From Squalus acanthias (taxonomy: Eukaryota): DNA of 64,000 bases. Position 1 is the stretch's first letter. Each line of letters begins with the position of its first letter. This document shows, in pieces, positions 47,466 through 50,683 of the stretch. The stretch is from contig CM059444.1 of NCBI GenBank assembly GCA_030390025.1, positions 12,338,001 to 12,402,000 of the forward strand, written 5' to 3'. Below the pieces are notes generated by a model, which saw only the letters and a list, made by a program, of their open reading frames with translations, searched no databases and had not been told where the DNA came from. The translations under genes were made by a program, and so were the position numbers.

Positions 47466-49146
47466 GTATGTAAACCTGCGTGTGTGCACCTGGATACGAG
47501 GGCTGGGCGGAAAGCTCCACACCTGTTTTGGAAATGAACAATTACTTTTATACGCATTAAGTCAGCTTTGTTATAGATTACAGTAATGGACTGTCTGCTT
47601 TGAAAGATAATAGACATGATCCACAATAATACATGCTTAATATGATTACAATTTTTTGATGTGAAAAACACAGTAAAGTGCCTGAAGCAGGATAAAGTCT
47701 TGTGTGTGAAACATTCAGAAAGGGAATCATATTCCCAAAATACTTATTTTCCAGACACAATTATAACAAATGACTGCAGTTAATTGGTGTCTGACACTTC
47801 AGTCCTCGAGGGCATGGCAGATGTAGTGACTCGATGCCTCTTCTTGAAGGAAGATTAGAGATTGGTTATGTGTGAACGTGCAAATTAATGGCTTTGCGTG
47901 AACCATTGCACAAAAAATGTGACCCTTTTACTAAGGATTCACTGACATAATCCTAATCCTGTGCTATGTGCTTACAGAATGATTCAGTTTGTGCATTTCA
48001 TTTGGAAAGAGGGGGAGGAGTGAGAGAGAGAGAGAGAGAGAGGGGGCTTGGATTATGGTTGTGCAGTACATCCTGTGTAGGAGGAATACAATGACGAGTT
48101 TTTTGTCTCGAACTTTCTGCAGATTTTAGACTCATACATGAAACAGATGATTGACACTTTTTTTTAAGGATTTAACATAATTGCAAATGTGAAGCTTACA
48201 GGAGCTGTGCAGATATCTTAAGAATACAGTAGATTGTGAATGTTGAGTCTGAGGTAGCTGCACTTTGGAAAAGGCTCCTTTATGATTGTTTAATATGCAC
48301 AAGATAGGTTTTATGTTCGACTTGCGATTTCTTTTAAACAGCAGTAGTCCTTTAAACTGCAGAAATCAAACGGGTGAGCAGAATTCCGTTGCAAATGGTC
48401 ATATGTTGGCAAAATTATTTATTTAGCCTATGTCACGCATCATTTTGCTGCTTTTTATTTCACCAACCTAAAGTCTCAAACACACAAGTTAAAACATTAA
48501 AGAATAGAGCCAAGCTCAATAAAGTAATATTTTGGAGTGAAGTGGCACAAAGTCGAAGAAATTATGACAATAAAAATGTCACAGCGGAACAGTTATTTCA
48601 GGGTGGAGGTTGACTTATTTCAGTTTAGTTGATTGGAGGACATTGCTCAGTGGATATATTCAGTACATTTAACCCTCTGGCCGTGATAATGGCAGTGAAA
48701 TCCCACTGATATTGAAAGAGTGCTCAGTGTGTCTGGACCTCATTCAAAAAAGAACTCTTTACTGGTTCACCAGGTACAATTTGTTATATTTTGGGTAATT
48801 ATATTAAGAGCATGTATGTATTAGGGATTTTTTTGCCGCATGTCAGGCGAAGTAGATTGCTAAACATGCACCACAGTGAAAATTCCACTAAACATGTGCC
48901 GTCAGGTTTATGGTTGGACTGTGGCTTTTTGAAAAGTGACACGTTTTGGCAGGAAAACAAAAATTTGCTGTTTAGTGTGTTGGGATTAACAGCAACCTAA
49001 AAGACACTTACAGCTGAGGAACGATCAACTGATTTATAATTTACTCTTGAGGTGAACCCGTCAGTGACTTCACAACATTTGCAGTGTTGTCTCTCTCTGA
49101 TCTCCCCCGCATCTAATTTCGTTTTTTTTTTTAACGTGCTTCGAAG

Positions 49147-49152
49147 ACCACG
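49147..49152 (+). CDS. ITPR1: Candidate 6-nt microexon ACCACG (Thr-Thr) of ITPR1
   Basis: ~60-nt AG-free pyrimidine-rich stretch with ctaat branch motif and T-run, TGC just before the aag acceptor, then ACCACG and a consensus gtaagt donor; frame preserving. Splice-signal inference only. Confidence 0.5.
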
Positions 49153-50683
49153 GTAAGTATTTGCAACTGAAGACTGCAGTTCGCCTTCTGGATGGAGATC
49201 AGAATTTGTTGATCTATATATTTTATATATAAAAATAGATTCTGTAATTAAACATTTATCCTTCTCTCCCCTTTTTCTAGGTGTGTTTTCTAATTTGCAC
49301 AGCAGGGTCACAACATTACAGCCACTTATGTTGCAGACTATAGAAAACCTGATTAGGACCTTTTTATAAGCAGAAAGTTTTAATAACCTACCAAGCCAGC
49401 AGTTAAAGAGCCAGAAGAGTGTGCCCTAAATTTCTACCATTGAGAGAATCGGTATTTTTTTTTTAATGTGTGGAAATCATGGGGCCAACTTTTCACTTTG
49501 CCAGGGCACAAAATTGGCAGTATCTGGGTGCTTGTTAGACACCACGTCTGATTTTTCCCCTCCATTGTAGATGGGTTTGATGACACTTTTTGTAGATCCA
49601 TCAACACACTCTGATTTGTTAGGTCACAGGGTTGAATAAAGTTGTTTGATTGAGAGCTGCGATTCTTGCTCACTTTTTTCCTTCCCATGCAAGTCAGTAG
49701 GCCGCATCTCAAAGTGGCAAGCCTTAGGACGCTGTTTCTAGTCATCACTATAGCCTTCGAAGAACGTTATCTTCCCTGCCGTGCTATGTGCTTCCTTGTT
49801 CTGGATTCTCGCTGTTTTCCTTTTCGCTCCTACTGTGGCCAACAGTTCCACCGTCTGACCCCAGCAAAAATTCTTCCGACTTGCTGTTTGGCCACTGCTT
49901 GTTTGACCTTAGCATAATTTTGTAATTTCTCTCACCATTTCTGCGACCGTTTGCCTAGATTTTCATGGCACAGTTTGTGGGAATCTCTCCGTTGAGAAAG
50001 TAGAGACTAGTTCCAGGCGTCCAATTGGAGATTCCTCGTAGGCACCTTGATTTATCCTTGAGTGGATGAAAGTCAGATCTGGCTCAGTTCCTTTGCTTGG
50101 AGAGGAGCAACATAAGTATGCAGGGATTTTGCCCATTCAGTTATGGACACCTTGTTAGTATTGCAGAAAGTGTTGCCTTTCTCTGCTGACAATTTATATA
50201 AAAGTTAATTGCCAGCATAATGAAGCCAACAGGTTCAGATACAACATTCCAACTATCTGCATTTACTTAAAGTCTGTAGTCTCTCTTTACGATTCACTAA
50301 ACCCTTGAATTTCCTGGAAAGTAAAGCCATTTTGTGAGCCTTGGGATTTCCCCTTTGTTTTGTCCAATTCTTAGTTGAGACGATCGTGCTACTTTCTTTT
50401 GGTTCAACCTGTAGAGTTCGTGAGCTTCAAGCTCTGGTGGTAGACCTACTTTTATTAAACATTCAGATAAGGCTGCCTTAACAGCACCAATGAACTTGTC
50501 TGTTATTTATCTCCGTAAACTGCAGTGATCAAATGTCACCAGCCAATTGCGTACTTGCTCTTCAGATAAAGGTGGATGTTTCTGTTGTTTGGAATGACTT
50601 GGTGCTCTATTTAGATAGAAGCAAGGATGTCAGCCGATTTAGGCAGTTCTATATTTCCCCAACCCCCATTTTATTTTATTATC

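What the first reader, a model, noticed from the sequence alone, without database searches (positions are those of the whole stretch)
49085..49160. Candidate 6-nt ITPR1 microexon (Thr-Thr) between SIIC and the next constitutive exon
Seen: after the ag at 49083-49084 there is no AG for ~60 nt; the stretch has a CT-rich tract, ctaat, an 11-T run, TGC (49137-49139), then aag|ACCACG|gtaagt. Established: a long AG-exclusion zone, strong pyrimidine tract, UGC near the 3' splice site, strong donor and length divisible by 3 typify SRRM3/4-dependent neural microexons. Inference: this is a fourth SII exon that I do not recall from the mammalian SIIA/B/C set. It would add two threonines and, if included alone, break the GYGEK|G junction motif.
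Basis: partly seen in the sequence, partly recalled or inferred. Interest (0 to 1): 0.72.

Follow-up and report, generated by a model that had tools for sequence, protein, structure and literature searches.

The report
Unconfirmed six-base ITPR1 microexon site
A shark calcium-channel gene (ITPR1) carries a textbook-shaped signal for a six-base nerve-type mini-exon, but every assembled transcript and gene model checked skips it, so it is likely used rarely or not at all.

Summary
The motif is exactly as described: 60-nt AG-free zone, branch-point-like CTAAT, 11 T, TGC, aag|ACCACG|gtaagt, in frame between SII-c and the GEALRQ exon of a shark ITPR1. It is the only site of that full shape in 445 kb of ITPR1; the same ordered pattern occurs 0 times in 2.06 Mb of control DNA (criteria set after seeing it). 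Use is not shown. In 4 of 6 RNA-like runs laid (3 organisms) SII-c is spliced in, and each joins it straight to the GEALRQ exon. 0 of 385 vertebrate ITPR1 models, 17 from cartilaginous fishes, carry Thr-Thr there. A teleost copy of the intron has no such site. These tests miss minority inclusion: contigs drop rare paths and aligners miss exons under 10 nt. Verdict: most likely a rarely or never used SRRM3/4-type site (0.55); a shark-lineage microexon in a minority of neuronal transcripts stays open (0.35). Side findings: one run shows a back-splice into SII-c (candidate 372-nt, stop-free circle flanked by inverted SINEs), and a likely decayed SII-b exon sits at 46199.

The parts
49085..49144 (+). 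60-nt AG-exclusion zone with TCTCTCTC run, branch-point-like CTAAT (49113-49117), T11 (49122-49132) and TGC (49137-49139)
   Evidence: sequence; longer than 44 of 50 real ITPR1 acceptors' zones, median 36; 5 CpG in 49106-49152, a density reached by 1.3% of 47-nt windows in the gene
49147..49152 (+). candidate 6-nt microexon ACCACG (would encode Thr-Thr), acceptor AAG, donor GTAAGT at 49153-49158; use not shown
   Evidence: sequence; donor rank 21 of 50, acceptor rank 5 of 50 among real ITPR1 sites; absent from all junctions seen
16516..16627 (+). ITPR1 constitutive exon ending GYGEK, upstream of the SII cassette
   Evidence: spliced match to shark model P0227
25779..25814 (+). SII-a cassette exon, 36 nt (LIAFDDELDVAE)
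   Evidence: joined to SII-c in contigs of X7, X8, X16
46199..46228 (+). likely decayed SII-b exon (LFAPLMPDPE), followed by a SINE
   Evidence: best match to a teleost SII-b peptide among 1018 AG-started frames in the SII-a to SII-c intron, score 27 against at most 22 in 5038 antisense controls; missing from 17 of 17 cartilaginous-fish models
46255..46597 (.). SINE-type repeat with an inverted copy 1.3-2.2 kb downstream of the GGNTTIQ exon (outside the window)
   Evidence: 90.5% over 158 nt and 85% over 191 nt, inverted; very high repeat depth
47418..47465 (+). SII-c cassette exon, 48 nt (ELDQNLPQKQLEDQKR); also the acceptor of a back-splice seen in run X7
53544..53676 (+). ITPR1 constitutive exon starting GEALRQ, holding the RRDSL kinase site

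Best explanation
The site has the splice-signal layout of an SRRM3/4-type neural microexon, but every ITPR1 transcript assembly and gene model examined skips it, so it is likely a cryptic site that is used rarely or never and likely arose in, or is limited to, part of the shark lineage. Mechanism (inferred): the 6-nt exon is too short for ordinary exon definition and its acceptor is weak (AAG, pyrimidine tract set back from the AG), so by default the spliceosome joins SII-c to the GEALRQ exon. Only high SRRM3/4 acting at the TGC would let it in, and in the samples seen that path is below what contigs keep. Shown: the layout, the frame, the skipping junctions. Inferred: the reason for skipping, the age, any SRRM3/4 response.
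For: Direct SII-c to GEALRQ joins in X6 (depth 149.8, one 3844-nt contig through the junction) and X7 (49.2), and in X7, X8 (organism C, one 9066-nt contig) and X16 (organism F), with no loose end starting ACCACG behind 47465: 4 of 4 runs that include SII-c, out of 6 RNA-like runs laid; the other 2 (X5, X10) enter the GEALRQ exon as SII-minus would. 0 of 385 ITPR1 proteins with this junction (391 fetched) have TT before it, including 17 models from 10 cartilaginous fishes, 14 of them with SII-c. The whole 761-nt SII-c to GEALRQ intron of a teleost-like contig (L122) has no comparable site; its only 6-nt AG..GT scores -4.8 as a donor. In a relative's DNA contig (X23) SII-c and its flanks have 2 changes in 381 nt against 10.6 expected, while the 655 nt holding the candidate take the 25 unlisted changes against 18 expected; a 250-nt island as conserved as SII-c's would need P about 0.0006, a 120-nt one about 0.02. 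Two runs differ from the assembly at 49120 and 49122, inside the pyrimidine tract. No Itpr1-named entry in two microexon supplements.
Against: The layout is rarer than chance predicts for this span (0.054 expected or fewer), fits the published architecture (UCU/CUC then UGC, strong tract and branch point far from the AG, strong donor; bioRxiv 10.1101/2024.09.17.613571), keeps the frame, lies in a neurally spliced cassette, and holds 5 CpG in 47 nt (Poisson P 0.001-0.004, post hoc), which hints at constraint. The negatives are weak for minority inclusion: only contigs were laid, they are simplified by SPAdes-like rules (10.1101/2024.07.30.605881) and the tool states that they drop rare variants; run tissues are not on record; 61 rows of table 5c were hidden; STAR's sensitivity falls below 10 nt (PMC7821500); only 15 of 94 members of the shark protein cluster could be listed. 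The conservation estimate assumes the hidden rows lie after 48645 and a uniform rate, on one contig of depth 5; no insertion or deletion touches the 6-nt spacing in that relative.
Confidence: 0.55

Rival explanations
1. A genuine, shark-lineage, neuron-specific microexon: SRRM3/4 bound at the TGC would bring the 6 nt into a minority of SII-plus transcripts, adding Thr-Thr 23 residues before the RRDSL serine that matches the PKA site of mammalian IP3R1.
For: Best microexon-shaped site in the whole gene and 0 equal sites in 2.06 Mb of control under the ordered pattern; in frame; CpG retention; spacing unbroken in a relative at about 96.6% identity; sits beside exons of the neuronal S2 insert (PMC5471599). 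A minority path 6 nt longer is the kind that contig simplification would remove (inference).
Against: 0 of 4 SII-c-including runs and 0 of 14 SII-c-including cartilaginous-fish models show it; no sign of a wide conserved island; polymorphism in the tract.
Confidence: 0.35
2. An ancient microexon shared by jawed vertebrates and missed so far.
For: Many neural microexons are old, and annotations miss them (PMC7821500).
Against: None of 385 models, some from deeply annotated fishes with dozens of isoforms; no site in the teleost intron L122, one of two fish copies; no mouse microexon listed on chr6 108.2-108.5 Mb, the Itpr1 place as I recall it, although that list is evidently incomplete.
Confidence: 0.04
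3. The site works as a stepping-stone (intrasplicing or recursive-type) acceptor, or opens a retained or terminal exon, rather than as a cassette exon.
For: Contigs of X5, X6 and X7 cover about 49100-49400.
Against: Those contigs run on as genomic sequence across the acceptor, with no joint or loose end at 49147; contig depths cannot rank parts of a gene.
Confidence: 0.06

Closest known systems
SRRM3/4-dependent neural microexons (architecture as described in bioRxiv 10.1101/2024.09.17.613571; catalogue in PMC7821500)
   Same: Length under 28 nt and divisible by 3; strong tract and branch-point motif set back from a weak acceptor; TCTCTCTC then TGC before the AG; GTAAGT donor; host gene with neural splicing.
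   Different: No inclusion seen, no conservation shown beyond one close relative's spacing, no SRRM3/4 test.
ITPR1 S2/SII cassette (40 residues, neuronal; PMC5471599; the SIIA/B/C names are recalled, not from a call)
   Same: Same intron cluster, same phase 0; would lengthen the insert next to the second PKA site.
   Different: SII-a and SII-c are seen in contigs and in models of 10 cartilaginous fishes, and SII-c has conserved flanks; the 6-nt piece shows none of this.

Membership tests
SRRM3/4-dependent neural microexon | 3-27 nt between AG and GT, usually keeping the frame | tested here: met
   6 nt, phase 0 on both sides
SRRM3/4-dependent neural microexon | branch point and strong pyrimidine tract far from a weak acceptor; long AG-free zone | tested here: met
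   CTAAT about 31 nt upstream, T11, zone 60 nt, acceptor rank 5 of 50
SRRM3/4-dependent neural microexon | UGC between tract and AG, UCU/CUC run upstream | tested here: met
   TGC 49137-49139, TCTCTCTC about 49090-49098; motif definition
SRRM3/4-dependent neural microexon | strong 5' splice site | tested here: met
   ACG|GTAAGT; rank 21 of 50 on a small matrix from this gene's own donors, so ordinary rather than exceptional
SRRM3/4-dependent neural microexon | included in neuronal mRNA | tested here: inconclusive
   0 of 4 SII-c-including runs; contigs only, tissues not on record, minority paths dropped
SRRM3/4-dependent neural microexon | conserved exon and flanks across species | tested here: inconclusive
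   absent from one teleost intron and 385 models; spacing kept in one close relative, splice-site letters there not visible, wide island unlikely; no distant shark genome could be read
SRRM3/4-dependent neural microexon | inclusion depends on SRRM3/4 | not testable with these tools
   needs a minigene or knockdown
ITPR1 SII cassette exon | lies between the GYGEK and GEALRQ exons at phase 0 | tested here: met
ITPR1 SII cassette exon | present in ITPR1 transcripts or protein models | tested here: not met
   0 of 385 models, 0 of 4 runs; low sensitivity for a 6-nt exon

The most novel reading that the evidence does not exclude
Sharks have an unreported fourth SII exon: an SRRM3/4-switched 6-nt microexon that puts Thr-Thr just upstream of the PKA site of IP3R1 in some neurons, while the older SII-b exon has decayed beside a SINE, so that the SII cassette has turned over in this lineage.
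Probability: 0.35. Interest if true: 0.5.

Novelty: new member of a known kind. Interest (0 to 1): 0.3.

Why it matters
If used, it would be a new microexon in a much-studied channel, placed beside the phosphorylation site through which the neuronal S2 insert changes PKA control (PMC5471599), and an example of a lineage-limited microexon arising inside an old cassette. It would still be one more member of a well-known class, adding two residues to a variable insert. If unused, it is a clean example of a decoy with full architecture. The label 'new member of a known kind' is the most it can be; the exon itself is unconfirmed.

Tried and rejected
1) No RNA holder was listed on record (kinds are guesses, libraries and tissues not given); 7 of 24 listed runs were laid. 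2) One search was crowded by SINE contigs (159 joints and 61 rows of table 5c hidden), so one search used a SINE-free stretch. 3) The excess SII-c depth in X7, first read as a possible second way out of SII-c, came from two ways in (SII-a and a back-splice). 4) Higher contig depth just downstream of the site in X7 was not used: contig depth cannot rank parts of a gene. 5) A second decoy, 11 nt at 48363-48373, is out of frame and loses its donor G in the relative's contig (48374 G>C): rejected. 6) RNA fold of 49070-49200: z 0.49, nothing special. 7) Median-donor threshold excluded the candidate; relaxed. 8) Paper searches for an ITPR1 microexon or SII exon structure and for an ITPR1 circle gave nothing on this site; I saw listings only for most hits, and VastDB could not be searched. 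A zebrafish 6-nt ACAACG entry in PMC7821500 file 4 lies on chr5, not where I recall the itpr1 genes: not taken as related. 9) Earlier-finding look-ups by relatives and by words were empty. 10) L123 holds only 933 nt upstream of the GEALRQ exon and no SII-c, so it tests little. 11) A second listing of the shark protein cluster gave the same 15 members. No structure or complex job was run.

Full report
Setting. The window is part of ITPR1 on the + strand of a 3.7-Gb genome. Its exons match shark and ray ITPR1 models most closely, so I take it to be a shark (inference). With a shark model as guide, 50 of 54 junctions were recovered at 90% or better over 445 kb (the 4 others were dropped from the splice matrices). 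The SII region reads: GYGEK exon ending 16627, SII-a 25779-25814, SII-c 47418-47465, GEALRQ exon 53544-53676. All junctions in the cassette are at phase 0.

Observation. The 6 nt would read Thr-Thr. Against this gene's own sites the donor is ordinary (rank 21 of 50), the acceptor weak (5 of 50) and the AG-free zone long (60; median 36; 6 of 50 longer). That pattern, with a UCU/CUC run and a UGC, is the architecture described for SRRM3/4 microexons (bioRxiv 10.1101/2024.09.17.613571: passages, section 10). The same paper finds UGC in 74-79% of such exons, so it is typical, not defining.

Chance. My first scan, with the median donor score as cut-off, excluded the candidate. With the cut-off at the lower quartile, it is the only in-frame site in 445 kb of ITPR1 sense strand that passes all tiers. 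The control (60 stretches of 10 kb on both strands, the antisense strand of 664 kb and 196 kb upstream; 2.06 Mb) gives 30 sites at the loose tier (frame, AG-free zone, TGC), 8 with a pyrimidine run, 3 with CTRAY as well (near-identical, apparently one repeat), and 0 with the ordered branch point-T6+-TGC-AG pattern. Expected in the 36.9-kb SII span: 0.54, 0.14, 0.054 and under about 0.05. The tiers were chosen after seeing the site, and the scan reads very many windows, so some such decoys will be picked. The site also holds 5 CpG in 47 nt, matched by 1.3% of windows in the gene (post hoc).

RNA. The 3' UTR (L019) found 24 runs, none on record as RNA. I laid 7: six guessed to be RNA and one DNA-like. 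In one search, X6 and X7 join SII-c directly to the GEALRQ exon (GT..AG, depths 149.8 and 49.2); in X6 one 3844-nt contig runs through the junction. X5 and X10 enter that exon 3 letters early, as the SII-minus join would. No row with letters between 47465 and 53543 was among the 12 shown; 61 were hidden. One search used a repeat-free stretch with complete tables: in X7, X8 (organism C) and X16 (organism F) the only loose end behind SII-c is the start of the GEALRQ exon, and SII-a to SII-c joins are seen in all three. So 0 of 4 SII-c-including runs show the 6 nt. Limits: these are contigs simplified with SPAdes-like rules (bioRxiv 10.1101/2024.07.30.605881, two passages), which would remove a minority path a few bases longer (inference), and tissues are unknown. 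High inclusion in these samples is unlikely; low inclusion is untested.

Protein models. Three searches and two cluster listings gave 391 proteins; 385 have the GEALRQ junction and none has TT before it. 17 are from 10 cartilaginous fishes, 14 with SII-c; only 15 of the 94 members of the main shark and ray cluster could be listed. Aligners miss very short exons (PMC7821500, passages), so this is weak for a 6-nt exon. An earlier AI note says a 9-nt FAK exon is present in such models (not checked).

Other genomes. A teleost-like contig, L122, holds SII-b, SII-c and the whole 761-nt intron to the GEALRQ exon; none of its 61 short AG..GT pairs has both a good donor and a long AG-free zone. It is one of two fish copies. 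A DNA-like contig of a relative (X23, depth 5) spans 47340-49300 with 67 changes and 25 gap letters. SII-c and its flanks are conserved (2 changes in 381 nt, 10.6 expected). Only 40 of 65 changes were listed, ending at 48645; if the other 25 lie beyond, the 655 nt around the candidate are no better conserved than plain intron, and a 250-nt island is unlikely (P about 0.0006; 120 nt, about 0.02). No insertion or deletion touches the exon, but I could not see whether AG and GT are kept. X5 and X6 differ from the assembly at 49120 and 49122, in the tract.

Literature. Searches found no report of this exon (listings only, apart from PMC6484407, whose Itpr1 passages concern elongation rate). Itpr1 does not occur by name in 8 supplementary files of PMC7821500 (one further file too large to read; the tables use coordinates) or in those searched of PMC12626420 (file 13 not searched). 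No mouse entry falls at the Itpr1 place as I recall it. VastDB was not available, and bioRxiv supplements were closed; both may bear on this.

How it most likely works. Shown: layout, frame and skipping. Inferred: a 6-nt exon with a weak acceptor is skipped by default; SRRM3/4 at the TGC would be needed for inclusion; in the material seen this happens rarely or never (0.55). The main rival is a shark-lineage microexon in a minority of neuronal transcripts (0.35). It would add two threonines to the S2 insert, 23 residues before the RRDSL serine, which aligns with the rodent RRESL site; the insert changes which PKA sites act (PMC5471599, passages). An ancient shared exon (0.04) and a stepping-stone or terminal-exon role (0.06) fit worse.

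Side findings. (a) In X7 a 57-nt contig (depth 49.8) joins the end of the GGNTTIQ exon, 12 kb downstream, to the start of SII-c. A 325-nt contig ending at that exon's end fits a branch there. The circle SII-c + GEALRQ exon + GGNTTIQ exon would be 372 nt with no stop in frame, and a SINE 0.8-1.2 kb upstream of SII-c has an inverted copy 1.3-2.2 kb downstream of the last exon (of 22 matches between the two flanking introns 12 are inverted and 10 direct, so inverted pairs are not scarce). One run only; exon repetition or a tandem duplication would look the same. (b) 46199-46228 is the best match to teleost SII-b in its intron, lies where SII-b should, runs into a SINE and is missing from 17 of 17 cartilaginous-fish models: likely a decayed SII-b.

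Verdict. Observation confirmed; interpretation partly supported. A well-shaped but unconfirmed microexon site, at most a new member of a known class. Interest 0.3.

Noticed in passing
window 47418 (SII-c acceptor) with the exon at L002 1251-1441: Back-splice contig in run X7 (depth 49.8): candidate 372-nt ITPR1 circular RNA of SII-c + GEALRQ + GGNTTIQ exons, in frame without a stop, flanked by an inverted SINE pair; one run, duplication or exon repetition not excluded.
   Followed up: partly
window 46199-46228: Likely decayed SII-b exon (LFAPLMPDPE, compare teleost LAPPPEPEVPAE) running into a SINE; absent from 17 of 17 cartilaginous-fish models and from SII-c's upstream joins in X7, X8, X16.
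   Followed up: partly
window 12740-12744: A 5-nt microexon-shaped site (CAGAG, donor gtgagg, AG-free zone 56, TGC, tract) in another ITPR1 intron; it would shift the frame.
   Followed up: no
window 48363-48373: 11-nt decoy ending like SII-c (AAACGG|gtgagc); out of frame, donor G changed in the relative's contig.
   Followed up: yes
window 48018-48045 and 53393-53436: (GA)n and (CT)n runs, complementary to each other, lie on either side of the candidate and could loop it out; such runs are common in this genome.
   Followed up: no
window 25814: SII-a has the weakest donor of the 50 scored (GAG|gttgac) yet is spliced in three organisms' contigs.
   Followed up: no
ITPR1 gene, G000:C20: Four of the 50 recovered introns have GC donors (gcaagt), one of them just upstream of the window.
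   Followed up: no
window about 34500-39640: Long simple-repeat array (CCCT-rich, then CTGTCGCTCT-type units) holding the N stretches, inside the SII-a to SII-c intron.
   Followed up: no
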